A DNA stretch of 51,559 nucleotides from Neolecta irregularis DAH-3 (taxonomy: Eukaryota), in the NCBI GenBank assembly GCA_001929475.1, contig LXFE01002711.1, positions 1 through 51,559 on the forward strand, in the 5' to 3' direction. The notes beneath the pieces are model-generated. The model worked only from the letters and a program-made list of their open reading frames with translations. It was not told the origin of the DNA and ran no database searches. This document shows positions 19,246 through 51,436 of this stretch, in pieces. The position numbers and the translations under genes were made by a program. The first letter of the stretch is position 1. Each line of letters begins with the position of its first letter.

Positions 19246-20345
19246 ATGTTGTCCATTGGTCTTGTAGTCTCATTTCTTGTCTTCTTGGCTGTCATTGGTC
19301 AGGCTCAGCCTACAAGTATGTGTTCTTCCGAGACATCAATTGACAACTTTAGACCAGCTCAGAAACCACCAGCAAGCAAAACGAGATTATGCTCATAGTG
19401 TTGTAAGTATGATTTCATTGTTCCGTCGTAATATTGTCAAAGCCTTCTTACAATCCGGCTGAGCCCATGGGGATCGCCTATTCGCCATATCAGGACGACG
19501 GAAGCTGCAAGAACCTCGACCAGGTAGTGTCTGATCTTCGACGGATCAATTCAGATGGATACCAAATTCTTAGAATGCAGGTCTTTCTGCTACTAATAGT
19601 GCTGATAATGCAGTTACGGCATTGATTGCAACCAAGTATGGATTGTTCACACAGCAATATTGAGCATCCCTAACAATAATCTCCGATTATTTCTCGGCAT
19701 CTTTGATATCTCCGATGTTTACGGCTCAGTACAAACAATCATTCGCGCTGTTAACTATGATTTTTCCAAAATTGTCACCGTTTCCGTCGGAAATGAGCTT
19801 GTCAACAACGGTATTAAAACCCCGACTGACGTCATCAATGCCATTGGAGAAGCTCGTAATCTATTGAGAGCAGCAGGATATGCTGGACCAGTCGTGACTG
19901 TGGATACATTTGTGGCACTAAAAGCACATGTCGAGCTTTGCTATGCTTCTGGTTTGTTCGATACAGCCAAAACTACTGTATTGATTGACTAGATTACGTT
20001 GCTGCTAATATCCATCCTTTCTTTGACGGACAAGTCTATCCAGAAAATTCCGGGGAGTGGGTCAGGAACCAGGTGAATGACCTAGCTGCTGCTTGCAACA
20101 ACTGGAACGTCCTCGTCACTGGTATGTTTGTTTTATGGACTAGAATTGATTCGGCAGAAACCGGGTGGCCTACCGCTGGCAACACTGTTGGCGTCTCTGT
20201 CCCTTCTATTCAGAACCAAGAGACTGCCCTTCGCTCGATTTCCAGAACATTAAATAACGGCTTTGTCAGCTTCAGCGCTTTCAATGATCTTTGGAAGGCT
20301 CCTGGACCGTTTAATTGTGAGAAGAGCTGGGGTCTCCTACGATAA
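19246..20345 (+). CDS. Secreted GH17 beta-1,3-glucanase/glucanosyltransferase (Scw4/Scw10/Scw11 family)
   Basis: Signal peptide MLSIGLVVSFLVFLAVIGQA; possible Kex2 site AKR; GIAYSPY..DGSCK; VSVGNELV; VVTVDTF; ANIHPFFD; ETGWPT; FSAFNDLWK. Confidence 0.92.
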
Positions 20346-21208
20346 TGTCTGCTGTCTACTTTATTTTAACTCATCAACTTCTTGTCCATATTGTTTAGTA
20401 CATGTGCGTTTTTCTTTTAGATCTGATTGAATTTTTCTTTCATGTGTATAGAGTAACGCAATATACTGAGAATCTGTCATACTGTGAAATCCTTTTCGCT
20501 CACTAGCCTCTGCAAACAGGGCTGTGTTCCTACATGCACAGACGTACTTAGTGCAGATTAGAAATCATACCCGAAGTGGACAACGCCGGCATACTACAGG
20601 CATACTACACGTGCTCGCCAACGTATTTCCAGTACCGAGCTGTAAAACAGACCTTGTTCATTTTCAGCCTTAGCCAGACAGCTGCTACTTGTTTCTTGAT
20701 GTGTGGTTACAAATTTCGAGATTCCTTTCTTCCAAGTCTCTCACGATCCTAGTCAACGAACTAGGATCCTTTCATTGTTCTAAAGCGAGTGTATAGGAAG
20801 CAATACTTCATCGTGTCCAATCGCGCGACAATGGCAAAATTGATCGTGTCTTGCTGCTACATGGTGTGCACGTTCGTCTTACTTTGTTCGCCTCGCACTA
20901 AAAGCTATACAAAGGTAATAGACGCAGTTTAAGACAGCTTCATCTATACTTCTCACTATACTTTACAATCCAAGTTTTACTGGATATTAAGCCTTGGGAA
21001 AATCGATGAAAATCGAGTTAATGATGATTTTTTCAACCTGCGTTTCATTGGGCGAAAATTTCTGACTCCTTACTGGATAAAAAAGGAGCCGGACGAAGAT
21101 TAGAGACCAATTCCAATCAAGTTAGCCTGTACCTGATGACAATCAATAAAATGGTAGAACGCCGCTCTTCTCCTATCACATCCACCCCTCATCTTCGTCT
21201 CTCCTTCA

Positions 21209-21215
21209 TATAAAA
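21209..21215 (+). promoter_or_regulatory. TATA box of first GH72 gene
   Basis: TATAAAA about 55 bp upstream of ATG 21267. Confidence 0.4.
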
Positions 21216-21266
21216 TCCGTCTTATTTCCTTCAAAGGATTCCATTTGCATCACCAAATTTGCCAAA

Positions 21267-23009
21267 ATGGGGCTTCTATCAGGGTTTTCTGCTGCTCTTG
21301 CCTTTTCATCAGTCGCTTCCACTAGTATATCTTCTATTTCTATCATTGTATGACGCCCCCATCATTATTAGCAGCTATTAAGGACCAAGGGGACGAAACT
21401 GTTCGATGCCAGTGGGCAAGAGTTCTTCGTCCAGGGGGTTGCCTACCAACAGGAAAATACCAATTCAGCTACCATAATAACGGATCCGTTGGCCAATGCC
21501 GCTGCCTGCCACCGTGACGCCCCGCTTATGCAGAAGCTCGGTATAAATACGATTCGAACTTATGCTATTGATCCCACGCTCGACCATAAGGAATGCATGG
21601 CTGAGTTTGAATCTGTGGGTAAACTTTCATTCCCGATTGCACTTGTTGACTTGCAGGTATCTATGTAGTGTCAGATTTGTCCCAGCCTAGAGCGTCGATC
21701 AATCGTGATGACCCGCTCTGGGATACCACTCTCTTCGATCGTTATACTGCTGTCGTCGATGCGCTCGCTATCTATCCCAATGTAATTGGCTTCTTTGCTG
21801 GGAATGAAGTTTCAAGTAATATAACAAACTCAGTTGCATCAGCTTTCGTCAAGGCTGCTATTAGAGATACTAAAGCCTATATCGCTCAGAAGAATTACAA
21901 AAATTTGTTTGTTGGTTACGTATGGTCTTGTTTCAGCTATGTTATGCTGATAGATAACAGGCTGCTAATGACGATCCGCTTATCCGTGACTCATTGGGCC
22001 AATATTTCGCCTGTGGCAATGAGACGGATCGGGCTGACCTTTTCGGTTACAACATTTACAGTTGGTGTGGGAAATCTGATATGCAAAAATCTGGATACGA
22101 CAAGCGAATAGAGGCATCTTCACCACCTGACCCTCACTAATCTCAAGGAATTCCAGAAGTATCCGATCCCGTCAATCTTCTCCGAGGTTGGATGTAACTT
22201 GGTAGAGTCAGCCCGTCCCTTCACAGAAATTGAAGCTATCTACGGCGATCAAATGGCACCAGTCCTCTCTGGCTGTATCGTATACATGTGGTTCCAAGAA
22301 GAGAACGACTACGGCTTAGTTAACGTCAGTGGCGACCAGGTTACACTTCGTCAGGATTACACCAATCTTCAAACCGAATTGGCCAAAGTCAATCCTACTC
22401 GAGCACAAAAGAGCTCATACAAGCCTTCGTCCAGTCTACTGGAATGTCCCTCTGATGCGACTGCTTGGCCTGTCTCTAATGTCCTTCCTCCCTCGCCGAA
22501 TAAGGATCTGTGCTCTTGCATGATTGCCTCCTTGTCTTGTGTTGTTGCTGATAATGTCGAAAGTAAGGATTACGGAACGATCTTTGGGCAGGTATGCGGA
22601 GCGTCATCATGTGACGGTATTCATGCGAATGGAACGACAGGAGAGTATGGAGCATATAGTATGTGTCAGGCCAAAGAGAAGCTCTCTTTTGCTCTTAATC
22701 AGTACTACAAGAAGCAAAATTACGCTTCCACCGCCTGCGACTTTAATGGTCAGGCCAAAATTCAATCTCCCAAAACTAGTGGATCATGCAAAAGTATCCT
22801 GTCTGAAGCCGGCACAGATGGTACTGGGAAAGTGTCATCAAGCATCTCGGCATCGTCAAAGGGTGTGTTGTTTTTTTTAAAGCTACTCACGGAAAGGCTC
22901 TGGCTCATCGTCCGGCAAGAGCGCTGGTGTTGTGCTTTCTTTCAACACAATCAAAACAGCTTTAGTCGTTGCAGGTGCTCTTGGGTTCGGGATGGTGTTG
23001 GTCTACTGA
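21267..23009 (+). CDS. GAS1: GH72 beta-1,3-glucanosyltransferase (Gas/Gel) with X8/CBM43 domain and GPI signal, copy 1
   Basis: Signal peptide; [31 protein letters not shown]; Cys-rich X8 (GEYGAYSMC...ACDFNG); C-terminal SAG plus hydrophobic tail after the last intron. Confidence 0.95.
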
Positions 23010-23258
23010 GCGTTTGTACGTTCGCCTTTCTATTATATTGATTTATTCCTCCGGAGTGATTGGCCCTTTTTGTTTTTGTAATTTCTCGGTTCAAGTGGTA
23101 TGGAATGAATTCTGATTCTTCTATTTCTGAATACCTGTTTTCCTCGGGGCTTGTGGTATCCAGGAAGAGTGGTCTTTCGGCCCTTTGTTCTTTTCAATGG
23201 ACTGACAAAAGTCAGACAACAAAACATTGCAAAGATGTGTGCCAAGCAAGACACGTCC

Positions 23259-23272
23259 GAGGCTAAAAATAG
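23259..23272 (+). promoter_or_regulatory. Composite GAGGCT (Crz1/Prz1 CDRE-like) plus perfect MEF2/Rlm1 box CTAAAAATAG
   Basis: GAGGCTAAAAATAG about 100 bp upstream of the ATG of GH72 copy 2. Confidence 0.5.
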
Positions 23273-23370: not shown

Positions 23371-25107
23371 ATGAAGAGTTCTTCTTTCTCTATAGCTGCT
23401 GTGCTGCTGTTGTCAACTTCTGTTTTTGCAACCCTCGATCCTATTGTCTCAAAGGGCACAAAGTTCTTCTACAAGACTTCTGGCACCCAGTTCTATATCA
23501 AAGGCGTGGCCTATCAGCAGGACCTGACAAACGCGACAACGAACGTGTCCTATGTAGATCCTCTGGCAGACTCAGCTGCCTGTACGAGAGACGTTCCCTA
23601 CCTCAAAGCGCTGGGCGTGAATGCAGTCAGGACCTATGCGATCAATCCTACCCAGGACCACTCGACCTGTATGCAACTTCTCGACGCAGCAGGTGCATTG
23701 CTTCATCCTTCGTATTTTTGTGCTGATTGCTCAGGCATATACGTGGTTTCTGACTTATCGGAACCTCGCAACTCAATCAACAGAGATGACCCTATTTGGA
23801 ATGTTGCATTGTTTACTCGCTACACTCAAGTTATCGACAGTCTTGCCCCCTACTCCAATGTTCTTGCATTCATTGGCGGAAACGAGGTTTCTAACAACAG
23901 TACTAATACGGATGCCTCCGCCTTTGTCAAAGCAGCTGTTCGGGATTCAAAAGCATATCTCGCTGCAAAGGGCTATCGAGATATTCCGGTTGGATATGCA
24001 GCCAATGACGATGCAGACATCCGTTTAGACATGGCCCAGTATTTTGCATGTGGCAACACCACCGAGCGCGTCGACTTCTAGTATCATATTTCTTTCAATC
24101 AGGACTGACATGAAAGCGCTGCCAATATATACAGTTGGTGTGGCACCTCTACATTTACAGACTCTGGCTATCAGCAACGTACACAGGTACCGTTGAACTA
24201 GTTGTATAACCAATTGATTCATAGGACTTCTCGACCTACCCCGTTCCTGTATTCTTTGGCGAATTTGGATGCAATCTTGTTCAACCACGTCCATTTACCG
24301 AAGTCGAAGTAATATTTGGTCCTCAGATGACCCCGGTATGGTCTGGTGGCCTCGCTTATATGTGGGTTCAAGAAGCCAATAATTACGGTCTTGTCGAAAT
24401 CAACGGGAACACTGTTACTCTCCTTCAAGACTACCAGAACTACAAAGCAGAACTAGCCAAAATTAACCCAATTACGGTCAACATCAACGCGTACACGCCT
24501 ACTCGCTTGACAATTGATTGCCCGGCCAGTGGTCATTCATGGGCTGCTTCAACACTCCTACCACCTACGCCAAACCAAAGTCTTTGCACCTGCATGGTTT
24601 CCAGTCTGAGTTGCGTTGCTAGCTCGAGCCTTTCTGCTACTCAAGTTGCAAGTAGCTTTGCTACTGTGTGCGGCCTGGTCAGCTGTGCTGGAATCAACGC
24701 TAACGGAACTACCGGTGTTTACGGAGCCTACAGTATGTGTGGAGCCAACGATCAACTCTCGTTCGTTTTCAACCAGTATTACATTGCACAAAAGAAAAAT
24801 CCCTCTGCCTGCGATTTTGGGGGTGCTGCCAAGTTAACAACGCCTTCATCGGTATCCTCTAACTGCCAATCCCTGATGGGGCAAGCCAAGAGTGACGGTA
24901 CAGGTGCTGTCCAAGCTACATCAACCGACCTTGTCGCCGCTAGTTCTGGTGTGTTCACATAAGTGACTACTACTAATTTCCATTTTAGGAGGCTCGGACG
25001 GTACATCAAGCAGTAAATCCAAAGATTCCAGTGCCGCTACTATTGGAAGTTCCAAACTTGCCTTCGTTATTGCTGGTGTGTTCGCGATGTGCTTATCGCG
25101 GTTCTAG
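23371..25107 (+). CDS. GAS1: GH72 beta-1,3-glucanosyltransferase (Gas/Gel) with X8/CBM43 domain and GPI signal, copy 2
   Basis: Signal peptide MKSSSFSIAAVLLL; FYIKGVAYQ; FIGGNEV; GYAANDD; ANIYSWCG; FGEFGCN; X8 domain; hydrophobic C-terminus. Confidence 0.95.
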
Positions 25108-25250: not shown

Positions 25251-28200
25251 TTATAAAGTCTCAATTGCGTCTTTTATGAATGCAAGATTCATTACGTCTT
25301 TTCCTCGATCGCTCTCCAGAACGTCCCGAAATTTGGCAAGCATCTCTTCTTCAGTCATATTCTGCAAATCGATTGAATTTTTCCATTCAATGAGCAACTC
25401 CTTCATTAACCTCGAGCCTTCTTCAATTTCTTCTTTCGAACATTTCATCCGTGTGTTCATTCCTTTCCCCGAAAAATCTTCCAGTTCATTCGCCTTTCTC
25501 TTTGCCATTTTAACGACTTTCTCCGGGAACCTCGCTATCTCCGCAACATGAATGCCGAACGATTGATCACAAATTCCTTCCTCGATTTTATATAATAAGG
25601 TAATTTCTCTGGATTCGCCATTTTCCCCTACATGTGCCACTACATGCAAGTTTTTAACCACTGGGCTCCCATTAGCGAGAACGGTTAGTTCGTGAAAGTG
25701 AGTGGCGAATAGCGTAAATGCTTTGATATTGTTTATTATGTGCTCTGAAATTGCCCACGCGAGACCAAACCCGTCTGTTGTAGAGGTGCCTCGACCTAAT
25801 TCGTCAATGATAATGAGAGAATCTGATGTTGCTGTCTTGAGAATAGTGGCAGTTTCAAGCATCTCTTGCTGGAACAGTCAGTAGAGGAAGGTTAGATATG
25901 TATTCACCATAAATGTAGAGACGCCCTTTAGTTGTGAATCACTTGCACCTACTCGAGCCAAGATACAGTCAAAAATGCATAGCTCAGCTTCGAGACAAGG
26001 AACGAAACAACCTACTTGGGCCATCAAAGCGATGACTCCGATAAGTCGGATATAGGTTGATTTTCCGCCCTTTTTGTCAATATTACTCGGTTTTTTTTGG
26101 CGACGAGTACCATATTCGGACCAGTGATGATAAGAAACTCGGATTTTCCACGCTCCAGAAGAACATCATTTGGTATGAAACTAACATCATCCTGTACTTC
26201 GAGACATGGGTGTCGAGCTTCAACAAGAACACACTTTTCCTGGCCTCGTTGGTTCATTTTGGGCCGAACGTAAGGTGCCGGTGCATACACAGAAACATGA
26301 GCAAAGCTTTCATGGTCAGCATCTAGTCACTGAACATATACCATACCTAATAATAACGTCCAAATGAGCAATTACACCGGCTAATTTCTCAAGCACAGGA
26401 CAATAACTTGCTGCAATTTCAACAACTTCTTTTACGAGTCCTGCTTGATGAGACTTGTAGCTCCGCTGGCACTCTTCATATTCCTTTGACAAGGACATCA
26501 ACTTTTTCGTCGTAAAGATAACTCCATTTTTCTGAGTAGCGAGATCTATATATTCTTTTTTCCCTCGCAAGCATGCAGAATCTGTTCGTGTAACCCTGAG
26601 GCTGTAGTTATGGACCATATGTTGTTCCAGTTTTAGCTTCTTAGTCGTATCCATTCCTAGGACGTCTCCGACTTCAATGTGAATTTCTTCGATTCCCGAT
26701 TTCAGGTCATTTAATCTATTCCGAATCTCTTGAAGACTTTCATCGAAATCTACTTTGATAAGAAATTCGTGATTGTCTAAAGCCTCGAGATCGATCGTGG
26801 TTTCTACCATCTCTTGAAACTTGTCCAGATTCACAATGTGTCCACGGAATGGATCAGTATATGTCTTTTTGATTAAATCAGAGTGCTTCTCATCAATTAT
26901 TGCCTCGAGATTCTCGACAAAGGATGGAAGTCGGATTGCGAGTTGATAGACTCTTACTACATCTTCGATCCCGGAAATTTGCTTCTGCAGTCGTTTAGCG
27001 AGCCGGTTGAGGTCCGGAACCGCTTTCAAAAGATCTTCTTGAAAAATCTGTCTAACCTCCGAATGTTCAACAAAGGCCTCGACTAGAGTATGACGGTCTT
27101 GAATTTCAGAGAATGACATCAAGGGTTGTTTGAGCCATTGAGACAATAATCGTGTACCCAGTGAGGATTTGCATTTATTGAGTAAACCGAAAAGGGACAT
27201 GCTTTTGTTGGCACCTTCGCGAGGACTTGGCATCAGGTTAAGAGCCTTCACTGCTGATGCATCCAGTTTCATAAAGTGAGCGAGGTCGTGTTGATATAGC
27301 TGATATTGGCCGAAATTTGTAGAGTCTGAGAGAAGCTTTCATTAATTTAGAATGCTACTGATGAAGTTACGTTCAGATATCGAATTAAAGCTGCAAGAGC
27401 AGAAGATGCAACTTTGAGGTCTAATTGGGCTCCCGATTAGTTGGCGCTGTTATCATGAAGACTTACGTAAAACAGAAGTGTTTACATCGCCATTCATAAG
27501 GCGTCTGAGATCTTGGGCAATATCTCGGGAATTGAAATCTACGGCTCGTTTCTCGGTGATAACAATGCCACATCGATCAATTGTTTCCCGAATCTTGGTC
27601 AAGTCGTAATCCTTCTTTTGGTCCTGCTGCAGTACACATTCCTTTGCTCCCAATTGAATCACAAGAGACTGTGGGGTCAGTGCGAATCCTCCGAAGACAG
27701 TACTTCTAAATTAGAGAAGACTTCGTTGTCTATGAACTCGCAAACTCCCAGCTCTCTAAGATTTGCATTTGCAAATCCAACGCCAACTAGTCTTCCTTCG
27801 ACATTGACTTGTAATTTGACAGCGATGATGACGGGATTCGAATTGAGGTCCCTATAGCCAAGCATAAGCTCTTCGACATCTTGAAGATTCCCGGGGGATG
27901 CCTTGTTGTAAGTGCCCTTTCTTTAAGAAGAAATGGACCTGTTTAGCAAGATGAAAGGATTTATTTCGTGAATTGTCACTTGCCCATATCTCAATACGCA
28001 AATTTCGGTTGACGAGCGCGTCATGAAGAAAGGTCCTGAAGGCCGTCTTTGAAAGAGTACAAGATGCAAGGCCACCGTTGCCGTTTGATGTTTTCCCCAG
28101 ATATTTCAGAATGGTCGTAGTTCGATAAACTGCCTCTGAGACAAATGCCGCGTCTGGACCATGAACACTATAGAAATCCTTTATCATTCAATTGATGGAG

Positions 28201-28378
28201 CAGGGTAATGACCACATACACCTCTCTCAAACAGCCTGATGGTTGAGGAATCTTTCTGGGGCAGGTTCCTGTAAAAGGAGATAAAGCCCGCAGCATCGTC
28301 TGCTCATGTCAGTAAACCCCCATAGTGTTGCTATGCACCCAATACCAGATCTGGACGATCGTCCTTCTTTACAGCCAT
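25251..28378 (-). CDS. MSH2: DNA mismatch repair protein Msh2
   Basis: [78 protein letters not shown]. Confidence 0.97.
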
Positions 28379-28716
28379 GGAATTTGGAGGTTGCAGTATC
28401 GCTATGGCCTTTCAGGACGGACCTCACGTTGATGAACGATCCGTGATCGCGGTGTTGAACCCCACCACATCCCTGTTTCCCTGTATAGCACGGGAGCATG
28501 GACCAGGACGACCGCGATTTTGCTCAGGCACCATATGGTGGTGGGTTTTTGCAGCTTGTGAACACTGGTATCCGCTGCATCTCTCGTCGGCTAACCATTA
28601 CAGCTGCCAAACTGGAAAACAGCCAGGAAGATGTAAATAAGAAAGACCCGGATTATCGTAGGTCTTGAATCCGGAACCCTGCTCAGTTTTCAGCCGTTGC
28701 ATTCGTTGTTCGGCAC

Positions 28717-35769: not shown

Positions 35770-35995
35770 TTATTTTGATCATGTATTGTTTTCTTTGAAT
35801 GTAGGAGCCACGGGTGTACTGTACTATAGGTCGAGGTAATTATGCATGGTTAGAATGAAATGTGTTGTATATTCAATATTTGGTCTGTAGAAAGATAAGA
35901 AAGTTTGATTGTTTTTCACCAAAATATGCAAGGAACCACGTTGCCCCATTGAGAATTTGTTCGCGCCTTCTTATCGCTATATTCTCTCCAAGACT

Positions 35996-36660
35996 ATGAT
36001 GGATGTCTCAGGTATAAAGTCTGTAGACCTATTTGGTGGTGCAATTGTAACCAAAATCCCATCCAGTTTTATCGATGGAAGGTATACTTGATTCATAAGG
36101 CACTTTACATCTCATAGTGTGTTTCGTCAGACTCCTGATAACCAAGAAGTTTATGTCGATCTAAAAGAAGGTTCAGATCTGAGCTTGATCATTGAGATTC
36201 TCGAACGAGAGGCCTGTTCTGATGAAGAGTCAGCTATCGTTCATTTTAATGCCATAGCGTATGATAACGACGTCCCTGAAGGTTCCATGAGAGTACTGTC
36301 GAATGAACTTGTTTCAACAGAGACTGTGCCAAATCTCAAGTATTGGCTTCTTCAAAGGAGTACTCATTTTAAAGCTCCCATGTTGTCTACTTATTATCGG
36401 GTATACAAGAGGCATACAAATGGGGACGAAAGACTGTGCTTCCACCTGGACAAACTTCGATAGTAGTGGTTATTGTAGCCGTGATACGACTTACCGCGCA
36501 GGCTACAGACTTGGTGATCAGTTTGAATGTGCCGGTAATTTTACAAACGAGTTCTTTAACGACTATTATGAAAGATTCCGAGATTGTTTGTATTGCCCTA
36601 AAAAAAGTCGAAGAGGTCCTAAAAGCGCTCACAATTCAAGATTACAGTCTCTTTAGCTGA
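35996..36660 (+). CDS. MOG1: Ran guanine-nucleotide release factor Mog1
   Basis: LFGGAI...IP..FID; RQTPDNQEVY; SLIIEILE; IRL....TDLVISLNVP; IQDYSLF. Confidence 0.92.
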
Positions 36661-36756: not shown

Positions 36757-38804
36757 TCAATCCAAAGTAATTGCTCCAAATATGTCTTCTAAGCCAGATG
36801 CTTCGTGTTTATTCGGCTTGCCTATTGTTCTTTTCTGACCCTCATCTTTCTGAGCGTTGTATTCCTTGACGAGCGTTGACATGATTTCTTTGTGAGGTGA
36901 CCCATCATTCTGACTTTTCACTTTGGCATAGTTCTCCTACATTGTCAATCAAGAGTGTCAAAGTATGATTCGTACCTTAATAAAAGTCTGATAAGCATTT
37001 GGCAACCTTACATCTTCTGGATAAGTCTGCTTTAGCCTTCCTTGACAAATCGAGCAAATGTGTTTCTCCGGATCAATACTTTTACTTTGGCGACCGTATT
37101 CTCTCGCGCATAGAGGATTGCTACATGTCCAACGGAATTTGTAGTAAATTTCATATTGATGGGTCGTCGTGACAGGAACTTTGGGAAATACCTTCATGAC
37201 TTTATTACCCCAAGATTTGAACTCTTTCCCGTGAGGCCTTTTAGTCACGCCGGATAGAATCCAAGTTGTCAGGTGGCAGAATTCGTGGGCTAGTGTGCTT
37301 TGAAGTTTTTCTAATTAATTAGTAAAGGAAAGATCGATAAAAAAGAAACCTTCTGAATCAATCACTTTGGTAGATAACTCGATTGTCGCCAGGTGATTTT
37401 CCTCAGTTGTTAGATTGCCCATTTTAACTTTCTCTTTCTTCCACTTTGCTCTTCCAGCAGTCGTTTGTAAGCGGTTACTCCAAACAATCTTGATTCCACC
37501 ATTCGCTCTGCACTTTCGACTCAATTCGCAATTCGTAATCTTTTGGTCGAGATCGGCCAAGAATACTGTAGCCATCGATTCTCGAGTTTTGGTAAAATCT
37601 CTGCGAGATTTCAGTTCTTGTGGTTTCTTGATAGGTGATGTTTTTCTCGGCGAGGGAGTATGTTGAGCAATCCAGCCGTGTTGATGTTGCTCATCCCAAA
37701 AGTTTTGTTCATGGGCTTTGTGTGGAGATAATGGTATTCGACGAGGGGTAGTAGGACGATTGAGCACTTTTGTGCGTGTAGGCGAAATTGGCGGTGAACT
37801 ACAGGTGTTAAATGGCTTTGGACAGTATGCAGTCCTACTAATCAAGGTATGCCGGTGCTTCGACCTCGTCCTCGTATATTGGAGAAGATATTAATATCAC
37901 CGATGTTGTTCTTGGCGGGGTTTTCCGACCGACAGAACCATTTCCCAGGGTTTTCTCATCAGACGTGGCATAAGATGACGAATTAGGCTTTTCATCATCC
38001 GAAAGATCTGATATACTCGGAGACCTTGCGCAGTATACTGCCTTCTTTGCTGGCACTTTTCCTCGGGGTTTTGGTTTGGTTTTGGATTCGAGATTCAGCT
38101 TGCAATTGGGTTGGACATTATTTTTCACAGTTTCATTTGGCCCAAAGCTTAGGTTCTCCTTTCCGTCATCTGAAACATAGTCCTTGAAATGAAGAGATAT
38201 GCCAGAACCAACTGAAGCTGACATTGATGGAGCGGAGGAGTTCAATGAACCATATACAGAATCTTTATATTTCGATTGAGGATTTGAAGTTTTAGGAAAC
38301 TTATTTTTGACTTTTTTGATATTGGGATAATTTGATGATGTGTCTGCTTTGTGAGAGTCTTCTGTTGCCGAAATGTTATATCTCTTGGCAAGTATACCAT
38401 CTTTATCATTGACGAACTCATTTGTTCGAGAAGACAACGACGCGGATTTTTCAAGTCTCTCCCTTTGAGACGAAACTGAATCTTCCGATAACCGAATGGG
38501 CAGAAGTGGAACATTAAAATTGTTCAGGGGTTGCTTGAAAGTCACATCCTATTCTTTTGAGTTTTAATATTTCAGACAGTGATACGGTGTGCTTTGCGGA
38601 TGAATGCTGGCTGATTGCGTTTTGACGATTATATATGCAATGTTCGCTGTTGGTAGCATTTGGATCATTGTTGCTTAGTGAGTAATTTTCTTTTGCGGTT
38701 CTTAGCTGCGCAAACAATTCATTCAATGCTGGTAAATCATCGGACTCGGAATCTGAATCATGGAGTCCGGTCTGATACTTTAATGGTGATCTCTGTCGAG
38801 GCAT
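36757..38804 (-). CDS. SprT-like metalloprotease with zinc finger and HMG-like tail (GCNA/ACRC-like)
   Basis: Long low-complexity N-terminus; WSNRLQTTAGRA; IELSTKVIDS; AHEFCHL (HExxH); PHGKEFKSW; HQYEIYYKFRWTC..C...YGRQSKSID...CSIC; NAYQTFIK|ENYAKVK. Confidence 0.9.
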
Positions 38805-39148
38805 GACATTATAATTCTGGCTGTAAACAAACGCGAATATATATTCCCGCCACAGCACATCAAGGATTTCAGTACTTGCCAATTATACAACGGCAGGAAT
38901 AATATCTGGTAGGAAAAATAATCACAATAGTTTTTGCTTAATTAGGGAGATTGAGTGCGTGACTGCAATTTTGAAGCAGGTAAATAGCATGCCTGCAGAA
39001 TCTGCATTGCCGATCGCAAAGAAGCAACTAGACCAAAGATGGGCTTTGGAATCAAATGGAGATAAGGAAGCGGCATCATCCGTGTGGCCCAGTTCGGCAT
39101 GTCGCCAACTGGGATAGTCTCCCGCAACAGACATGGCGGATGACACCC

Positions 39149-40072: not shown

Positions 40073-43000
40073 ATGTCTCACCGGCAAAACCAATATCACG
40101 ATGATCCCTATGCGCAGCAGCAACAGGGTGGCCACCCGCAAGAACAATACTATGACGATTATCCGCAGGATGGTAATCAGCCTGGCGGATACGCGGCCCA
40201 TGGCCAATACAATCAACAACATGAATCTTACTATGACGATCAGGGAGGAGAGGCATATTACGACAACCAGCAACGCAGAACCTATGGATCTGATGCTGAC
40301 TACTACCGACAAGAAGGCTACGAAGACTACCCTGTAGATGCTTATCCGGCAAATGATTCCTACGGTATGCTTTTTCCGCCAAATCTTTTCATTTCTCACT
40401 CAAGTAGGACCTGGACCTGCTGGTGGTCACCAACCTATGCAGTACTTCCAGGGGCAAGCTGGCCAGCGAGGAAACGCTCCCCGCGGCGTGAGGCGAGGAT
40501 CTTCCGAAGAAGATTCTGAAACCTTTTCTGATTTTACCATGCGGTCAGATATGGCTCGTGCTGCCGAAATGGATCTCTACGGCCGTGGAGACGAGCGATA
40601 CAACAACTATGGTCAGTCTACCGATGACTTATCTCAGGTGACGGGGAACAATCGTGGCTATCGGCCACCTTCTTCGCAGGTCTCGTATAATAATCGGTCT
40701 TCTGGTGCTTCAACTCCTGTATATGGTTTGGAATATGGGAATGAAGCTGCTGGAGTTCGTTCTCGAGAGCCATTCCCCGCATGGTCGTCCGATAATCAAG
40801 TGCCTGTTTCCAAAGAAGAAATTGAAGACATCTTCATTGACCTAGCGAACAAGTTTGGATTTCAACGGGATAGCATGAGGAACATGTACGATTTTCTTAT
40901 GACCCTTCTCGACTCGCGAGCGTCTCGCATGACTCCCAATCAAGCTCTTCTTTCACTTCATGCGGACTATATTGGAGGCGATAATGCCAATTATCGAAAA
41001 TGGTATTTTGCCGCCCAACTCGATCTCGATGACGCTGTTGGTTTTGCAAATATGAAACTCGGTACAAAGTCAAAACGAAAAGCAAAGAAAAATAAGAATG
41101 CCGCTAATCCCCAAGACGTCGCTCGAAAACTCGAAGAACTTGAAGGGGATAATAGTCTTGAAGCTGCCGAATATCGATGGAAGTCAAAGATGAACCAAAT
41201 GACACAACACGAACGAACTCGCCAACTTGCCCTTTGGTTGCTTTGCTGGGGTGAAGCCAACCAGAGTCGATTCTGCCCAGAATTGATGTGTTTCTTATTT
41301 AAATGCGCCTACGATTATCTCGTATCGCCGGAATGTCAAAATCTCGTCAGTCCTGTTCCGGAGGGTAAGTATCTCAACGAGATCATCACTCCGTTGTACC
41401 AGTTCATGCGCGATCAAGGCTATGAGATTATCGGCGGGAAATATGTTCGTCGCGAAATAGATCATGCCAAGATCATTGGGTATGATGACATCAATCAGCT
41501 CTTCTGGTATCCGGCCGGTATCGCTAGAATAGTGCTCAAAGATAAAACTCCCCTGGTCGATATACCTCCGGCACAACGATGGAATAAGCTTGTTGACGTC
41601 GAGTGGAAAAAAGTCTTTTTCAAAACGTATTATGAAACTCGGTCATGGTTTCATATGTTCACCAACTTCAATCGTATCTGGGTCATTCATATTGTCGTCT
41701 ACTGGTTCTATACCGCCTTCAATTCACCTACTCTCTATACGAAGAATTACAATCAGCGTCAAAACAATCAACCTCCTGGCTCTTATAAATGGTCCTCGGT
41801 TGCTCTTGGTGGTGTTGTTGGATGTCTTCTTATGCTATTGGCAACCTGTGCCGAGTGGGCTTATGTCCCTCGTCGATGGGCTGGTTCTCAGCATCTCTCG
41901 AAACGGTTCTTTCTATTGTTGATAGCACTCGTTGTCAACGCAGCTCCTGGTGTATTCGTTTTTATGGTCGCAAAGGATCCAAAATCCAGCATTGCTCTCA
42001 TTGTCGGTATAGCTCACTTCTTCCTTGCGTTGGGGACCACCTTGTTGTTCGCATTAGTGCCTCTCGGAGGGTTATTTGGCAATTATCTCCAGCAGAACCG
42101 ACGAACATATGTTGCTAGCCAAACGTTCACTGCGAGTTGGGCTAGTCTTGAGGGTAACAATAAATGGATGTCCTATGGCCTCTGGGTGCTCGTTTTCACA
42201 TGTAAAATGGTAGAATCGTACTTCTTCCTTACCCTATCGTTTCGAGATCCTATTCGAGTGCTCAGCACAATGACTGTTCAAAACTGTCAGGATAAGATTC
42301 TTGGAACCATGTTTTGTTCTCGGCAACCTCAAATCGTTCTCCTCCTTATGTATATCACCGATCTCGTCCTCTTCTTCTTGGATACCTATCTTTGGTATAT
42401 TATCTGGAATACAATATTTTCGGTCGCTAGGTCATTTTATCTCGGTATCTCAATCTGGACTCCATGGCGGAACATTTTCTCTCGCCTTCCGAAACGTATA
42501 TATTCGAAAGTCCTTGCAACCAACGACATGGAAATTAAGTACAAGCCAAAAGTCCTTATATCACAGGTTTGGAACGCAATCGTTATTTCCATGTACAGAG
42601 AACATCTTTTGTCTATTGATCATGTCCAAAAATTGCTCTATCATCAGGTATCATTTGGTACCTCGCATATAGCTTATGATACAGGTTCCTTCTGAACAAG
42701 AAGGCAAGCGAACCCTTCGAGCACCTACTTTCTTTGTTTCACAGGAAGACCATTCGTTCGAGACCGAGTTTTTTCCCGCGGGTAGCGAAGCGGAACGTCG
42801 CATTTCTTTCTTTGCTCAGTCGCTTTCAACACCTATTCCAGAACCGCTACCTGTCGACAACATGCCAACTTTCACCGTCTTCATCCCCCATTATGGTGAG
42901 AAGATTCTTTTGTCGTTGCGTGAAATCATTCGAGAAGACGATCAGCTATCGCGTGTTACTCTCTTGGAATACCTCAAACAGCTCCATCCTGTTGAATGGG

Positions 43001-46000
43001 AATGTTTCGTAAAGGACACCAAAGTTCTCGCCGAAGAAACAGCAATGTTTAACGGCGGAAATTCACCTTTCGAGAAGGATGAAAAGGAAACAGTTAAAAC
43101 TAAAATCGACGATCTTCCATTCTATTGTATCGGTTTCAAGTCAGCCGCTCCCGAGTATACTCTTCGAACTCGTATTTGGGCTTCGCTTCGATCACAGACG
43201 CTCTATCGCACAATATCTGGATTCATGAATTATGCACGAGCTATTAAGTTATTATACCGAGTTGAGAACCCGGAGGTCGTTCAGATGTTTGGCGGTAATA
43301 CGGATAAGTTGGATAGAGAACTTGAACGGATGGCTAGACGAAAATTTAAGTTATGTGTTTCTATGCAACGATACACCAAATTCAACAAGGAAGAACAAGA
43401 GAACACTGAATTTATTCTCCGCGCTTACCCGGACCTTCTTATATCCTATCTCGATGAAGAACCTCCAGTCAATGAAGGGGAAGAACCTCGAATTTTCTCG
43501 GCTTTAATTGATGGACACTCGGAAATAATGGAAGATGGTCGAAGACGGCCCAAGTTCCGAATTCAGCTTTCCGGAAACCCCATTCTCGGAGATGGAAAGA
43601 GCGATAATCAGAACCACGCCATCATTTTTTATCGGGGCGAATATATTCAACTTATTGATGCCAATCAAGACAATTATCTGGAAGAATGTCTCAAAATTAG
43701 ATCCGTTCTCGCCGAGTTCGAAGAAATGACAACAGAAAATGTTTCGCCCTATGCACCTGGTCATACAACTCAAAACAAGAACCCTATTGCTATTCTCGGT
43801 GCTCGTGAATACATCTTTTCCGAGAACATGGGAGTGCTCGGTGATGTCGCTGCTGGAAAAGAACAAACATTCGGTACTCTCTTCGCTCGTACATTATCTC
43901 TCATTGGCGGGAAACTTCACTATGGTCATCCAGATTTCCTTAATGGTATCTTTATGACAACTCGTGGTGGTGTCTCGAAAGCCCAAAAAGGTCTCCACCT
44001 CAATGAAGATATTTATGCCGGTATGACCGCGTTCCTTCGGGGTGGCCGAATCAAACATTGTGAATATTACCAGTGTGGTAAGGGTCGCGATTTGGGATTT
44101 GGTTCTATCTTAAATTTCACGACGAAGATTGGAACTGGTATGGGAGAACAAATGTTATCTCGTGAATACTATTACATCGGTACCCAACTTCCTCTCGATC
44201 GCTTCCTTTCGTTCTACTACGCGCATCCCGGTTTCCACGTCAATAATTTGTTCATCATGTTATCGGTACAAATGTTCATGTTTGTCATGATCAATCTTGG
44301 AGCTCTTCGTCACGAACTCCCAGCTTGTGACTACAATCCGAATGTCCCTATTACCGACAAACTCAAACCTGATGGTTGTTACAACCTGGAACCAATTCTT
44401 GGATGGGTTGCTCGATGTATCTTATCTATTTTCATTGTTTTCTTCATCTCTTTCGTACCTTTGGTTGTCCAAGAATTGACCGAACGAGGATTTTGGAGAG
44501 CTGCTACTCGTCTTGGGAAACATTTCGGATCATTATCTCCGTTATTCGAAGTGTTCGTTGCACAGATTTACGCTAATTCATTGCTAAACAACTTGGCCTT
44601 TGGAGGTGCCCGATATATCGGTACCGGTCGAGGTTTTGCAACTACTCGAATTCCCTTCGCTATTTTGTATTCTCGGTTTGCTGGACCATCCATTTATCTC
44701 GGTTCTCGAACGGTGTTTATGCTTCTGTTTGGTACAATGACAATTTGGATGCCTCATTTGATCTATTTCTGGATCACTATCCTCGCACTTTGCATTTCAC
44801 CATTTATCTACAACCCGCATCAATTCGCTTGGACTGACTTTTTTGTGGATTACAGAGAATTTATTCGATGGATGTCTCGAGGTAACAGTCTAGCTCACGC
44901 CAATTCGTGGATCGGATACTGTCGATTGTCTAGAACAAGAATCACGGGTTACAAGCGCAAAGCCCTCGGAAAACCGTCTGAGAAGCTTTCCGGAGATATT
45001 CCTCGAGCTTCCATTACCAATATGTTCTTCAGTGAAATCGTTGGACCATTCATTATTGTATTGATTACTATTGCTCCTTTCGCATTCATCAACGCTCAGA
45101 GTGGATTTATTGGACAAACCGGTGTCACCCCTTCTAGTTCTCTCATCAGGATTGGTCTCATTTCGTTTGCACCGGTCCTTCTCAACACTGCAATACTTCT
45201 CGGATTGTTTTGTATGGCTTGTTGCATGGGCCCGATTCTCTCCATCTGTTGCAAGAAATTCGGCTCAGTCCTCGCAGCCATTGCTCACACATGGGCCGTT
45301 CTAAATCTCCTCATCATATTCGTGGCTCTTTGGCTACTTGAGTCTTGGTCTCTGCTAAAAACTATACTTGGTATCATAGCTATGACGGCTATCCAACGAT
45401 GGTTCTTCAAACTGCTTACTGCTACGATATTGACCCGAGAATTCAAACACGATGAATCCAACAGAGCTTGGTGGTATGTATTTTTTACCTCGCTGTTTCT
45501 AATTTCCCTAGGACTGGTAAATGGTATGGTACTGGACTTGGTGCACACGCAATCTCTCAACCGGCTCGGGAGTTTGTCTGCAAGATCATTGAACTTAGTA
45601 TGTTTGCTACAGACTTTTTACTTGCGCACACTTTATTATTCGTCATGTTGCCTCTGCTATGCATTCCATACTGCGATAGATGGCATTCGGTCAGCTTGTT
45701 CTGGCTTCGACCAAGTCGGCAAATTCGCCCACCGATATTCTCTCTCAAACAAAATCGTCTTCGAAAGAGAATCGTTCGACGCTATTCTACGCTTTACTTT
45801 ATTCTCCTGGTAGTTTTTGTTGGAATCATTGCCGGGCCGCTTGTCATTAAGAAGCAATTGGGTGAGTCATTCCCAGTTTCCTCAATCGCAGGCTGACATT
45901 TTTAGTCGCAATGGACCTCGGAAGCAAGATTCCATCTGGCTTCGGCTTGGCTCAGCCTACTAACGCCTTGATGAATGCCACTGTTGTCACAGATACAGCT

Positions 46001-46027
46001 CTGCCAGCTACGACCAGCACGGCATGA
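40073..46027 (+). CDS. FKS1: 1,3-beta-glucan synthase catalytic subunit (GT48)
   Basis: [115 protein letters not shown]; last short exon ends at TGA 46027. Confidence 0.99.
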
Positions 46028-46464
46028 ATACAACGAATGATAATATTGATTTCCTTCCCCATATTGATTAGTTTATTTGCTTCCTCTTTTTGTCGGGTAT
46101 CATTGTTAGGCTATTTAGTTCGGAGAATCAATTCGTGTTGGATATATCTCGTCTTGTGACCATAATTCCGTGCCCATGACTATTCTCAATCACATTCTCA
46201 ATATCGCCCCCTGCATACGACGCCACACATCGAACATGTCGCGTTATATGGCTGGCTTGTATGTCAACAAGTAGAGGGAATTAGGCAAGCCTCTCTAAAG
46301 AATTTACACGAACCAAAACATTCACAGGGCACTCGGTACCTCTGCTCGGTAAACAACCCAATCTTAGTTTTCATCCTTCTTTGAATCACCCAGAGCCTGT
46401 CGCAGCCTCTTCACATTCGTTTACAACAAACTCTCGTTTACTCATTCAAGGCCTGTGCTTCGTT

Positions 46465-47846
46465 ATGGGACGAAAGAAAATACAGGCATGCATTCTATCG
46501 CCATCGTTCACTTATCGTTATAGATTAGGAAAATCGGCGACCCCAAGACGAAATCAGTATGCATGAGATCATCAGACCGATAAAGTTAACGAACCAAGGT
46601 TACATTCACTCGACGGCGAAATGGTTTACTCAAGAAAGCCTATGAAATCTCGGTTTTGTGCGATACTCGGGTCGTCATATTGATGTTTGATCAGAAGGAC
46701 GCGTGCCATGTGGTACCGTTTGATCGTAAACATTCAAGTACTGACAAAGAATAGTACTCCACGATCAACGAGGAGAACAGTGCTGTTGATATGATGAACA
46801 TGTATATCAATAAAAGCTTCATTACGACAGATCCTCGACGTAATTTTGAGATTCCTTCAAACTTGACACCGGAACTGAAGTATTGCTCTGTCATCTTCAA
46901 ACTGCAGACTGACATTTCAAGCGGTGGTTTGCGAACCTGTCCTAACAAGAACCCCATTGCTATTGTTAACACGTATGAGGTCGTCCCTGCTCCATTAGAT
47001 GGTGAACAACAAATCGATGACTGCGATCTCGATGGATCAGAGCAGCTTCGCGTTCTTTCAAATCGTTTATACCATTCAGTTTCTGTAGGCTTGCCGGGAA
47101 TCAATTTGATTACACCAGCGTTAACTCATGATGGGGACACATTTTCTCCGAGACTTTCCTCTACAGGCTTTCCAACCCCAGAGTTAAATAATATGGCAGC
47201 AGATGATCCTGCTGGCCTCGGAATATTATCAGAGAACTTGATGTCAAACTTCAATGCACCACGACCACGTTCTACCTCGCCGCGAATGCACTCACCACAG
47301 ATGATGGGGCAGTCACAAAGAACCTGGAAGAAGCCAGTGGTAATGCAACCGAATGCAATGCGACAATCTCTTTCAGCCAGGTCAGATCACTTCCATCAAG
47401 CACAACCTCTAGCTCAAGCAGTTGACCGATCAGCTAAATTCGGAACCTCCCTTGGTCAGAATGTCAGGAGCCCCCTGGTTCAAGATCACAGAATATCAGC
47501 AACTGAAGATCCTAATGTAGATAGGAGCATGATGGATGTGAATTTTGATAGCTACTCTATAGGAAATCGACCATATATTACAGCTGCTATGGATGTATCA
47601 AATCCGGCCGTATACTCCACTGATTTCTTCGACGAACCACTTTCATCCGACTTTCACTTACAGCAAGTGGCTGGTCAGAGGAGATTGGCGGGCGACCGAG
47701 TTACTATTGAAGAACCTTGCTACGAATATTCTCATTATGGAAACATATTCACAAATGATACTGCGCAAGGAATGGGAGAGAATTGGTTGGTAGAGTCACC
47801 GGATACTAATCACTCGGTGGTAGACCAAGGGATGGCATGGATGTAG
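46465..47846 (+). CDS. mbx1: MEF2-type MADS-box transcription factor, Mbx1-like (exons 46465-46485, 46524-46556, 46599-46712, 46755-47846)
   Basis: Spliced [59 protein letters not shown]...[11 protein letters not shown]. The ACHVYS and NK.F.T.DP motifs recall S. pombe Mbx1. Confidence 0.88.
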
Positions 47847-51426: not shown

Positions 51427-51436
51427 NNNNNNNNNN
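51427..51436. other. Assembly gap (10 N)
   Basis: Run of 10 n characters. Confidence 1.

What the first reader, a model, noticed from the sequence alone, without database searches (positions are those of the whole stretch)
19246..47846. Beta-1,3-glucan module: GH17, two GH72 genes, glucan synthase and an adjacent MEF2-type MADS regulator
Seen in sequence: a GH17 glucanase and two GPI-anchored GH72 transglycosylases lie co-oriented within 6 kb, FKS1 lies 15 kb downstream on the same strand, and a MADS-box gene follows it directly. Established: GT48 makes the polymer, GH72 elongates it, GH17 remodels it, and MEF2-type Rlm1 controls cell-wall genes in fungi. Recalled parallels (to verify): S. 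cerevisiae SCW10-FKS3-GAS1 (YMR305C-307W) and FKS1-GAS2 are adjacent, and Aspergillus fumigatus has scw4/fks1/gel7 close together. Inference: an ancient, loosely clustered cell-wall glucan system spanning all three ascomycete subphyla, here possibly including its regulator.
Basis: partly seen in the sequence, partly recalled or inferred. Interest (0 to 1): 0.75.

Follow-up and report, generated by a model that had tools for sequence, protein, structure and literature searches.

The report
Loosened ancient glucan synthase–transglycosylase gene neighbourhood
In this Neolecta contig the genes that make and remodel the main fungal wall polymer lie within 29 kb, which looks like the loosened remnant of a synthase-next-to-transglycosylase gene pairing shared by distant ascomycetes, while the neighbouring MADS regulator does not appear to belong to that shared arrangement.

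Summary
The window is the whole 51,559-bp contig of Neolecta irregularis DAH-3. All five genes are real and at the stated places: a Scw4/Mp65-type GH17, two tandem GH72+X8 genes, a 1,901-aa FKS (GT48) 15 kb downstream, and a MEF2-type MADS gene directly after it. Five unrelated genes separate the GH72 pair from FKS.

The recalled parallels hold. FKS and a Gas1-type GH72 carry consecutive locus numbers in S. cerevisiae (twice), S. pombe, three Pneumocystis species, A. fumigatus, Elaphomyces granulatus and Sarea resinae. A Scw4-type GH17 is linked in A. fumigatus and a Caloplaca-like lichen fungus. A SprT-like gene beside FKS here lies beside the GH72 in two Leotiomycetes. So Neolecta holds a rearranged version of an ancient tight pairing.

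The regulator part is not supported. Rlm1 orthologues are unlinked to FKS in the species tabulated and absent from Pneumocystis. One Rlm1-type site in the window is no more than chance. Only S. pombe bgs1–mbx1 remains as an unresolved parallel. No systematic synteny survey was possible with these tools.

The parts
19246..20345 (+). GH17 gene, Scw4/Scw10/Mp65 type. Exons: 19246-19315, 19353-19402, 19443-19576, 19614-19951, 19993-20121, 20158-20345.
   Evidence: Pfam PF00332 on the last exon at E 3.8e-5. Deposited protein P0121 carries PF00332 and relatives are named Scw4, MP65 or cell wall glucanase. Model and alignment to homologues. GNE and TETGWP motifs are visible; their catalytic role is recalled.
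19577..19613 (+). GC-AG intron in GH17 that the deposited model misses
   Evidence: Only this splice keeps the YxxxRxYGxDCxQ block, which is present in 8 of 8 aligned homologues and absent from deposited P0121.
21267..23015 (+). GH72-1: GH72 + X8 (CBM43) glucanosyltransferase, 517 aa, six exons, with a GPI-signal-like C-terminus
   Evidence: Pfam PF03198 and PF07983. Model. The first intron (21348-21389) is uncertain.
23263..23272 (+). The only CTA(W)4TAG (Rlm1/MEF2-type) site in the window, 108 bp upstream of the GH72-2 ATG
   Evidence: 1 match against 0.59 expected; 42 of 100 shuffles have at least one. Position.
23371..25107 (+). GH72-2: GH72 + X8 glucanosyltransferase, 526 aa, five exons, with a GPI-signal-like C-terminus; the more conserved copy
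   Evidence: Pfam. Model. 58% identical to the FKS-adjacent GH72 of Sarea resinae.
25251..36660 (.). Four of the five unrelated intervening genes: a MutS homologue (-, ~25251-28200), a GRAM/GT28 sterol-glucosyltransferase-like gene (+), an FCP1/NIF phosphatase (+) and Mog1 (+)
   Evidence: Pfam on exon ORFs. Gene boundaries are approximate.
36841..38882 (-). SprT-like gene, divergent from FKS; a conserved neighbour of the FKS/GH72 locus
   Evidence: Pfam SprT-like and Zn_ribbon_SprT. The C-terminal halves of the fused GH72+SprT models P0297 and P0298 match it at 32-36% identity, E 3e-45 and 4e-52.
40073..45896 (+). FKS (GT48) beta-1,3-glucan synthase, 1,901 aa in my model. Exons: 40073-40364, 40408-42647, 42685-45473, 45512-45896. 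The deposited model adds one further C-terminal intron.
   Evidence: Pfam Glucan_synthase 1384 bits, FKS1_dom1 and FKS1_dom2. 100% identical to deposited FKS1 over 1,890 aa.
46465..47846 (+). MEF2-type MADS-box gene, 418 aa. Exons: 46465-46485, 46524-46556, 46599-46709, 46755-47846. The first intron is GC-AG.
   Evidence: Pfam SRF-TF 57 bits. PDB comparison: MEF2 ~37 bits, against MCM1 28 and SRF 26. Model.
48939..51221 (+). CBS + PB1 domain gene following the MADS gene
   Evidence: Pfam CBS and PB1.

Best explanation
The locus holds ordinary, apparently intact genes for three successive steps of beta-1,3-glucan wall construction.

- FKS polymerises the glucan at the plasma membrane.
- The two GPI-anchored GH72+X8 transglycosylases elongate and incorporate it.
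- The Scw4/Mp65-type GH17 remodels it.

These roles follow from established knowledge of the families and were not tested here.

Their proximity is inherited. The ascomycete ancestor already had FKS directly beside a Gas1-type GH72, probably with a Scw4-type GH17 and a SprT-like gene close by. In the Neolecta lineage the GH72 duplicated in tandem. Rearrangements then placed the GH72 pair next to GH17 and put four further unrelated genes between it and the SprT-FKS pair. The MADS gene is a genuine MEF2-type factor, but its position beside FKS is most likely a lineage-specific accident. At most it is a Taphrinomycotina-limited feature, not part of the conserved module.

Why the pairing persists is inferred, not shown. 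The leading idea is shared cell-cycle or wall-stress expression.
For: Gene identities.

FKS and GH72 carry consecutive locus numbers in:
- S. cerevisiae: YLR342W/YLR343W and YMR306W/YMR307W.
- S. pombe: SPAC19B12.02c (gas1) and SPAC19B12.03 (a glucan synthase).
- P. murina PNEG_03180/03181, P. carinii T552_02202/02201, P. jirovecii T551_02309/02310.
- A. fumigatus: Afu6g12400/12410.
- Elaphomyces granulatus: Egran_01011/01010.
- Sarea resinae: M1819_005789/005790, whose GH72 is the best non-self hit of GH72-2.

Eight species appear by name in both hit lists. The eighth, Erysiphe pulchra, has them on two ~10-kb contigs.

GH17 linkage: A. fumigatus SCW4 is AFUA_6G12380. In cf. Caloplaca sp. 1 the GH17 is Q9220_002082 and the GH72 is Q9220_002085, on a contig of the same length.

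SprT-like neighbour.

Tandem duplication: the two Neolecta GH72s are 52.7% identical, share the positions of three introns (of five in GH72-1 and four in GH72-2), and are sisters in a 119-sequence tree.

Co-regulation elsewhere: YLR342W, YMR305C and YMR307W are all listed as Swi4+Swi6 targets in S. cerevisiae.
Against: - In the window itself FKS and GH72 are not adjacent: 15 kb and five genes separate them. Neolecta alone would not establish a linkage.
- Adjacency elsewhere rests on locus-tag numbering and equal contig lengths, not on inspected DNA. No eukaryotic genome collection was available.
- The species sampled are those that happened to be tabulated or named in hit lists, not a survey.
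- In N. crassa FKS-1 (NCU06871) and GEL-4 (NCU06850) are 21 numbers apart. In Pneumocystis the only GH17 listed (Bgl2) is elsewhere.
- Sister support for the two Neolecta GH72s is weak (0.57).
- A conserved non-wall neighbour (SprT-like) means selection for function is not required.
- S. pombe bgs1 (SPBC19G7.05c) does sit beside a MADS gene, mbx1 (SPBC19G7.06). This argues against dismissing the MADS adjacency outright.
Confidence: 0.7

Rival explanations
1. This is a functional, co-regulated cell-wall cluster that includes its own regulator. The MEF2-type MADS factor next to FKS controls FKS, the GH72 pair and GH17, and selection for co-regulation keeps them together.
For: - Rlm1-type factors control wall genes in S. 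cerevisiae (passage).
- The only consensus Rlm1 site in the window lies 108 bp upstream of GH72-2.
- S. pombe has a MADS gene (mbx1, SPBC19G7.06) beside a glucan synthase gene (SPBC19G7.05c).
- The FKS-GH72 pairing has survived in lineages that are very distant from each other.
Against: - One site in 51.6 kb is what chance gives: 0.59 expected, and 42 of 100 shuffles have at least one.
- There is no site upstream of GH17, GH72-1, FKS or the MADS gene itself.
- Five unrelated genes interrupt the 'module'.
- The listed Rlm1 orthologues (YPL089C, SPBC317.01, C4_01260W_A) are not beside FKS, and Pneumocystis keeps FKS-GAS1 with no Rlm1 at all.
- Ma et al. 2016 list mbx1 as an Mcm1 orthologue, and the closest Rlm1 homologue in fission yeast is Mbx2.
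- In S. cerevisiae the linked genes are SBF targets.
Confidence: 0.12
2. The arrangement in Neolecta is pure coincidence and has no evolutionary connection with the pairs seen in other fungi.
For: - GH72 and GH17 are multi-copy families: seven and five members in A. fumigatus.
- The genes are not adjacent to FKS here.
Against: - The FKS-adjacent GH72 of Sarea resinae is the best non-self hit of Neolecta GH72-2.
- The single SprT-like gene beside Neolecta FKS is the orthologue of the gene fused or adjacent to the GH72 in two Leotiomycetes. This ties the Neolecta locus to the Pezizomycotina FKS/GH72 locus.
- Immediate FKS-GH72 adjacency occurs in nine species across three subphyla.
Confidence: 0.08
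3. The conservation is neutral relic synteny. The block (GH17, FKS, GH72, SprT-like) simply has not yet been broken in most lineages, and no selection acts on the linkage.
For: - A DNA-repair-type SprT-like gene shares the neighbourhood.
- Neolecta and probably N. crassa show that the block can be loosened without obvious loss of the genes.
- In P. murina and P. carinii, aconitase lies five locus numbers from FKS, and it is adjacent to bgs2 in S. pombe. This is another non-wall neighbour retained.
Against: - By general knowledge, not measured here, gene order between Saccharomycotina, Pezizomycotina and Taphrinomycotina is almost entirely scrambled. Immediate adjacency retained in all three, and twice in S. 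cerevisiae, is hard to reconcile with no constraint.
- The linked S. cerevisiae genes share SBF control.
Confidence: 0.3

Closest known systems
S. cerevisiae YMR305C-YMR306W (FKS3)-YMR307W (GAS1) and YLR342W (FKS1)-YLR343W (GAS2)
   Same: The same three families (GT48, GH72 with X8, Scw-type GH17) are linked. The FKS and GAS identifiers are printed. YLR342W, YMR305C and YMR307W are all Swi4+Swi6 targets.
   Different: The genes are immediately adjacent there. In Neolecta, 15 kb and five genes lie between GH72 and FKS, and GH72 sits next to GH17 instead. No MADS gene is involved (RLM1 is YPL089C). The name SCW10 for YMR305C is recalled.
A. fumigatus SCW4 (AFUA_6G12380) - one gene - FKS1 (AFUA_6G12400) - GEL7 (AFUA_6G12410)
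   Same: GH17 of Scw4 type, the single FKS and a GH72 lie within four consecutive locus numbers. The numbering in cf. Caloplaca sp. 1 (GH17 002082, GH72 002085) is compatible with the same pattern.
   Different: The order is GH17-x-FKS-GH72 with a single GH72. In Neolecta it is GH17-GH72-GH72-(5 genes)-FKS. No regulator is adjacent.
Pneumocystis FKS1-GAS1 (three species) and S. pombe gas1-bgs3
   Same: These are Taphrinomycotina like Neolecta, with synthase and Gas1-type GH72 on consecutive locus numbers.
   Different: They are tight pairs. No Scw4-type GH17 is listed nearby. Pneumocystis lacks an Rlm1 orthologue.
Alpha-1,3-glucan synthase with an adjacent amylase-like gene (A. fumigatus AGS1 Afu3g00910 and Afu3g00900)
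   Same: It is the same kind of arrangement: a wall polysaccharide synthase gene beside a gene for an enzyme acting on related glucan. That this pairing is a recognised cluster is recalled.
   Different: The polymer and enzyme families differ, and the comparison is by analogy only.

Membership tests
GT48 / FKS beta-1,3-glucan synthase | Glucan_synthase catalytic domain together with the FKS1 dom1 and dom2 domains, in a protein of about 1,900 aa | tested here: met
   PF02364 1384 bits over profile positions 1-818 of 819. PF14288 E 6e-31 and PF23605 E 5e-75. The 1,901-aa model is identical to deposited FKS1 over 1,890 aa. 78-81% identity (over the 929-aa exon 3 used as query) to FKS1 of many fungi.
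GT48 / FKS beta-1,3-glucan synthase | UDP-glucose-dependent glucan synthesis and echinocandin sensitivity | not testable with these tools
   Needs enzyme assays or genetics.
GH72 (Gas/Gel/Phr) glucanosyltransferase, GH72+ subfamily | Full GH72 catalytic domain followed by a Cys-rich X8/CBM43 module | tested here: met
   Both genes: PF03198 covers profile positions 13-313 (GH72-1) and 4-313 (GH72-2) across exons, with a gap at about positions 183-231 (GH72-1) and 209-234 (GH72-2) that fell in exons not scanned. PF07983 matches at E ~1e-26 to 1e-27. NEV and SEVGCN/GEFGCN motifs are visible; their catalytic role is recalled.
GH72 (Gas/Gel/Phr) glucanosyltransferase, GH72+ subfamily | N-terminal signal peptide and C-terminal GPI-attachment signal | tested here: inconclusive
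   A hydrophobic N-terminus and a Ser-rich stretch followed by a hydrophobic C-terminus are seen by eye in both models. No signal-peptide or GPI predictor was available.
GH17, fungal Scw4/Scw10/Mp65 group | GH17 domain and closest relatives of Scw4/Mp65 type | tested here: met
   Exon-level PF00332 at E 3.8e-5 is below the cut-off. The deposited protein P0121 and most listed relatives carry precomputed PF00332 and are named Scw4, MP65 or cell wall glucanase, at 48-60% identity. The PDB exon match to the Rhizomucor GH17 transferase is only E 0.54.
MEF2-type (type II) MADS-box factor / Rlm1 orthologue | MADS box at the extreme N-terminus that scores better against MEF2 than against SRF/MCM1 | tested here: met
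   PF00319 57 bits. On the same 33 residues: MEF2A-D 37-38 bits (one MEF2A C4-form chain, 1c7u, 33.7 bits) and SEP3 43 bits, against MCM1 28 and SRF 26. The protein starts MGRKKIQ.
MEF2-type (type II) MADS-box factor / Rlm1 orthologue | Control of cell-wall genes downstream of the cell-integrity MAP kinase | not testable with these tools
   The only indirect test was the Rlm1-site scan: 1 site in the window, not above chance.
Conserved FKS-GH72 adjacency (ancient ascomycete gene pair) | Synthase and Gas1-type GH72 as immediate neighbours | tested here: not met
   In the window, 14,966 bp and five genes lie between them. The window is a derived, loosened form and not a member of the tight-pair pattern.
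Conserved FKS-GH72 adjacency (ancient ascomycete gene pair) | The window's locus is homologous to the paired loci of other fungi | tested here: met
   The best non-self hit of GH72-2 is the FKS-adjacent GH72 of Sarea resinae. The SprT-like neighbour is shared with the GH72 of two Leotiomycetes.
Co-regulated gene cluster with an in-cluster transcription factor | Contiguous genes whose promoters carry the factor's binding sites | tested here: not met
   The genes are interrupted by five unrelated genes. One of five promoters has a site, against 0.59 expected.

The most novel reading that the evidence does not exclude
The ancestor of Taphrinomycotina, or of all ascomycetes, had one compound wall locus resembling GH17 - GH72 - FKS - MADS, with SprT-like, aconitase and a CBS/PB1 gene nearby. 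Neolecta still shows most of it on one 29-kb stretch.

When fission yeast multiplied its synthase genes, each copy kept a different ancestral neighbour:
- bgs3 kept gas1.
- bgs2 kept aconitase, as near FKS in two Pneumocystis species.
- bgs1 kept the MADS gene mbx1.

On this reading the synthase-MADS adjacency is ancient and possibly regulatory, linking septum or wall glucan synthesis to a MADS factor.
Probability: 0.2. Interest if true: 0.65.

Novelty: new member of a known kind. Interest (0 to 1): 0.5.

Why it matters
Very few gene adjacencies survive between budding yeasts, fission yeasts and filamentous ascomycetes. A retained pairing of the echinocandin target FKS with the Gas1-type transglycosylase that processes its product would be a candidate for a selectively maintained unit of wall synthesis.

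It gives a simple, testable question in model yeasts: does separating the pair change expression timing, wall composition or stress tolerance?

The adjacent identifiers are printed side by side in at least one published table (Ma et al. 2016, Supplementary Data 18, read). None of my searches retrieved a paper whose listing or searched passages comment on the adjacency, and those searches cover only the open-access library.

For Neolecta the practical value is annotation. The deposited models merge the two GH72 genes and mis-splice GH17.

Tried and rejected
- My first GH17 model used a GC donor for intron 1. I rejected it when the deposited protein showed a solution with two ordinary GT-AG introns. 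The GC-AG call for the intron at 19577-19613 was kept because homology requires it.
- Rlm1/MEF2 site scans, strict and relaxed, showed no enrichment.
- The PDB search with the 112-aa GH17 exon was only E 0.54.
- The Atlas search with the MADS exon showed only that it is an SRF-TF domain.
- There are no tRNA genes and no Rfam matches in the window.
- Takada et al. 2010 (PMC2820430) is not held. One search shows that its 'Mbx1' is today's Mbx2, so my initial recall that mbx1 (SPBC19G7.06) is the Rlm1 homologue was wrong or at least unsupported.
- Supplement searches for further S. pombe identifiers found nothing. My recollection that the CBS/PB1 gene mug70 lies two genes from bgs2 could not be verified.
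- The genome-contig collection holds only bacteria and archaea and was not used. No fungal DNA outside the window could be inspected.


Full report
**Origin.** The 929-aa third exon of the glucan synthase gene is 100% identical to the deposited 'FKS1 [Neolecta irregularis DAH-3]'. That protein's longest contig is 51,559 bp, the length of the window. The window is therefore a whole contig of this early-diverging Taphrinomycotina species. Stop-to-stop ORFs plus Pfam give about 23 genes. All introns modelled are very short.

- *FKS.* Pfam places Glucan_synthase (1384 bits), FKS1_dom1 and FKS1_dom2 on 40338-45813. My four-exon FKS model (40073-45896, 1,901 aa) is identical to the deposited protein over 1,890 residues.
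- *GH72.* Glyco_hydro_72 plus X8 lie on two adjacent genes, modelled as 21267-23015 and 23371-25107. Each has its own start, a hydrophobic N-terminus, a Ser-rich stretch followed by a hydrophobic C-terminus, and its own stop. I read these ends as a secretion signal and a GPI signal by eye; no predictor was available.
- *GH17.* This was the weakest call: one exon at E 3.8e-5, nothing for the 112-aa exon, and a PDB match at E 0.54. A database search settled it. The deposited protein P0121 ('Cell surface mannoprotein MP65', PF00332) and 48-60% identical relatives named Scw4, MP65 or cell wall glucanase were found.
- *MADS.* The gene (46465-47846) has an SRF-TF domain (57 bits on a 37-aa exon). 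It scores 37-38 bits against MEF2A-D and 43 against plant SEP3, but 28 against MCM1 and 26 against SRF. With the MADS box starting at residue 1, it is MEF2-type.
The GH17/GH72 trio spans 5.86 kb, FKS starts 14,966 bp later on the same strand, and the MADS gene starts 569 bp after the FKS stop.

**What lies between.** Five unrelated genes separate GH72-2 from FKS: a MutS homologue on the minus strand, a GRAM/GT28 sterol-glucosyltransferase-like gene, an FCP1/NIF phosphatase, Mog1, and a SprT-like gene on the minus strand that is divergent from FKS. This is not a contiguous cluster.

**Annotation points.**
- The deposited record merges the two GH72 genes into one 1,038-aa protein (P0241). Of the other 119 hits, 117 are 430-615 aa. 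The two longer ones owe their length to a fused SprT-like gene, not to a second GH72 domain. Two genes is the better reading.
- The deposited GH17 model lacks a block (YxxxRxYGxDCxQ) that 8 of 8 aligned homologues have. The block is restored only by a GC-AG intron at 19577-19613.
- Of the 20 introns I modelled in the five genes, 3 are GC-AG. Each of the three is required by homology or by the paralogue. The median intron length is 38 nt.

**The two GH72 genes.** They are 52.7% identical over 471 aa and share the positions of three introns (of five in GH72-1 and four in GH72-2). They are sisters in a FastTree of 119 sequences: the two models plus 117 hits, with the two fused models left out. 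Support is only 0.57. GH72-2 is the more conserved copy, at 58% identity to the Sarea resinae protein against 52.5% for GH72-1. An old tandem duplication in the Neolecta lineage is the simplest reading.

**Is the linkage ancient?** I could not inspect fungal DNA from elsewhere, so I used locus identifiers, which number genes in chromosomal order. That assumption is mine. Supplementary Data 18 of Ma et al. 2016 (PMC4764891; I read this table) lists:
- S. cerevisiae: Fks1 YLR342W and Gas2 YLR343W; Fks3 YMR306W and Gas1 YMR307W.
- S. pombe: glucan synthases SPAC24C9.07c, SPBC19G7.05c, SPCC1840.02c and SPAC19B12.03, with Gas1 at SPAC19B12.02c.
- Pneumocystis: Fks1/Gas1 at PNEG_03180/03181, T552_02202/02201 and T551_02309/02310.
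- A. fumigatus: Afu6g12400 and Afu6g12410.

Tables in Mouyna et al. 2013 and Millet et al. 2018 (passages read) give GEL7 as AFUA_6G12410 and SCW4 as AFUA_6G12380. One search gives FksP as AFUA_6G12400.

My own searches add more:
- Elaphomyces granulatus: FKS Egran_01011 and GH72 Egran_01010.
- Sarea resinae: FKS M1819_005789 and GH72 M1819_005790.
This numbering matches the A. fumigatus pattern GH17-x-FKS-GH72, although I did not see the Caloplaca FKS itself.

Eight species are named in both the FKS and GH72 hit lists. The eighth, Erysiphe pulchra, has them on contigs of 10.5 and 9.0 kb, which is uninformative.

One looser case is N. crassa, with FKS-1 at NCU06871 and GEL-4 at NCU06850.

A rough estimate of mine: the chance that a single FKS has one of ~5-7 GH72 genes as an immediate neighbour is about 0.002 per genome. 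Finding it in three subphyla cannot be chance. Common descent of one ancestral pair explains it, and the two S. cerevisiae pairs imply that the pair was once duplicated as a unit.

**Tie to the Neolecta locus.** Two fused gene models, Pseudogymnoascus V499_04307 and Chlorociboria B7494_g5834, consist of a GH72 followed by a SprT-like protein. The SprT-like part matches the SprT-like gene that sits 1.2 kb upstream of Neolecta FKS, at 32-36% identity with E 3e-45 and 4e-52. FKS, GH72 and SprT-like therefore belong to one old neighbourhood. In Neolecta this neighbourhood has been rearranged, so that the GH72 pair now sits beside GH17 and five genes away from FKS.

The same result cuts the other way. 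A non-wall gene is conserved in the block, so conservation alone does not prove a functional module.

**The regulator.** Ma et al.'s Supplementary Data 25 (rows seen) lists Rlm1 as YPL089C, SPBC317.01 and C4_01260W_A, with no Pneumocystis orthologue. None of these is beside an FKS identifier. In P. murina, FKS is flanked by a metacaspase (PNEG_03179) and Gas1.

The window has one CTA(W)4TAG site, 108 bp upstream of GH72-2. The expectation is 0.59, and 42 of 100 shuffles have at least one. Relaxed patterns add none in the promoters of GH17, GH72-1, FKS or the MADS gene. In S. cerevisiae the linked genes YLR342W, YMR305C and YMR307W are listed as Swi4+Swi6 targets, which points to cell-cycle control rather than Rlm1.

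One parallel remains. S. pombe mbx1 is SPBC19G7.06, next to the glucan synthase SPBC19G7.05c. That gene is bgs1 by recall, which is consistent with the coordinates. But Ma et al. list mbx1 as an Mcm1 orthologue, and the table gives MCM1/ARG80 for yeast yet MEF2A-D for human. The 'Mbx1' described as an Rlm1 homologue is in fact Mbx2. I could not obtain the Mbx1 sequence, so its type stays unresolved.

**A lead for the bold reading.** Aconitase is SPAC24C9.06c, adjacent to the synthase SPAC24C9.07c. In P. murina and P. carinii it lies five locus numbers from FKS (PNEG_03175, T552_02207), though not in P. jirovecii. Together with gas1-bgs3, this suggests that the fission-yeast synthase paralogues each kept a different part of an ancestral neighbourhood. 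That makes bgs1-mbx1 worth checking.

**Prior reports.** Three searches found no paper that comments on the adjacency: glucan synthase/glucanosyltransferase/synteny/adjacent/GH72/GH17, FKS3/GAS1/SCW10/GAS2, and phrases such as 'adjacent to FKS1' or 'adjacent to GAS1'. The two hits, for 'adjacent to bgs3', were seen only as a listing. These searches cover only the open-access library, and most older yeast literature is outside it.

**Verdict.** The genes are ordinary members of known families. The interesting part is the deep conservation of the synthase-transglycosylase pairing, of which this window is a loosened example. The proposed inclusion of the MADS regulator is not supported, but it is not fully excluded within Taphrinomycotina.

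Noticed in passing
window 19577-19613, 22114-22147, 46486-46523: Three of the 20 introns modelled in the five genes begin with GC instead of GT. Each is required to keep a conserved protein block or the paralogue's intron position. All 20 introns are 34-45 nt, median 38. A GC-AG share of 15% would be unusually high if it were general for this genome.
   Followed up: partly
window 21267-25107: The deposited annotation fuses the two tandem GH72 genes into one 1,038-aa protein (P0241). The sequence supports two separate genes, each with its own start, stop and terminal signals.
   Followed up: yes
   Followed up: yes
window 8938-10326 (-): A Gaa1 GPI-transamidase subunit gene lies about 9 kb upstream of GH17 and 11-13 kb upstream of the two GH72 genes, which appear to be GPI-anchored. 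This is probably coincidence and was not examined further.
   Followed up: no
window 36841-38882 (-); proteins P0297, P0298: The SprT-like gene beside FKS is orthologous to the SprT-like half of two fused GH72+SprT gene models from Leotiomycetes. It is therefore a conserved neighbour of the FKS/GH72 locus.
   Followed up: yes
window ~28700-32694 (+): A GRAM + GT28/UDPGT sterol-glucosyltransferase-like gene sits between the GH72 pair and FKS. It would use UDP-glucose, as FKS does. There is no evidence that this is more than coincidence.
   Followed up: no
proteins P0033, P0054: Two deposited FKS models, from Chaetothyriales sp. and Phaeosphaeriaceae sp., are about 2,420-2,480 aa and also carry an aminotransferase domain (PF00155). 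This is probably a fusion with a neighbouring gene. The window has no counterpart.
   Followed up: no
window 51427-51436: A run of 10 N lies near the end of the contig.
   Followed up: no
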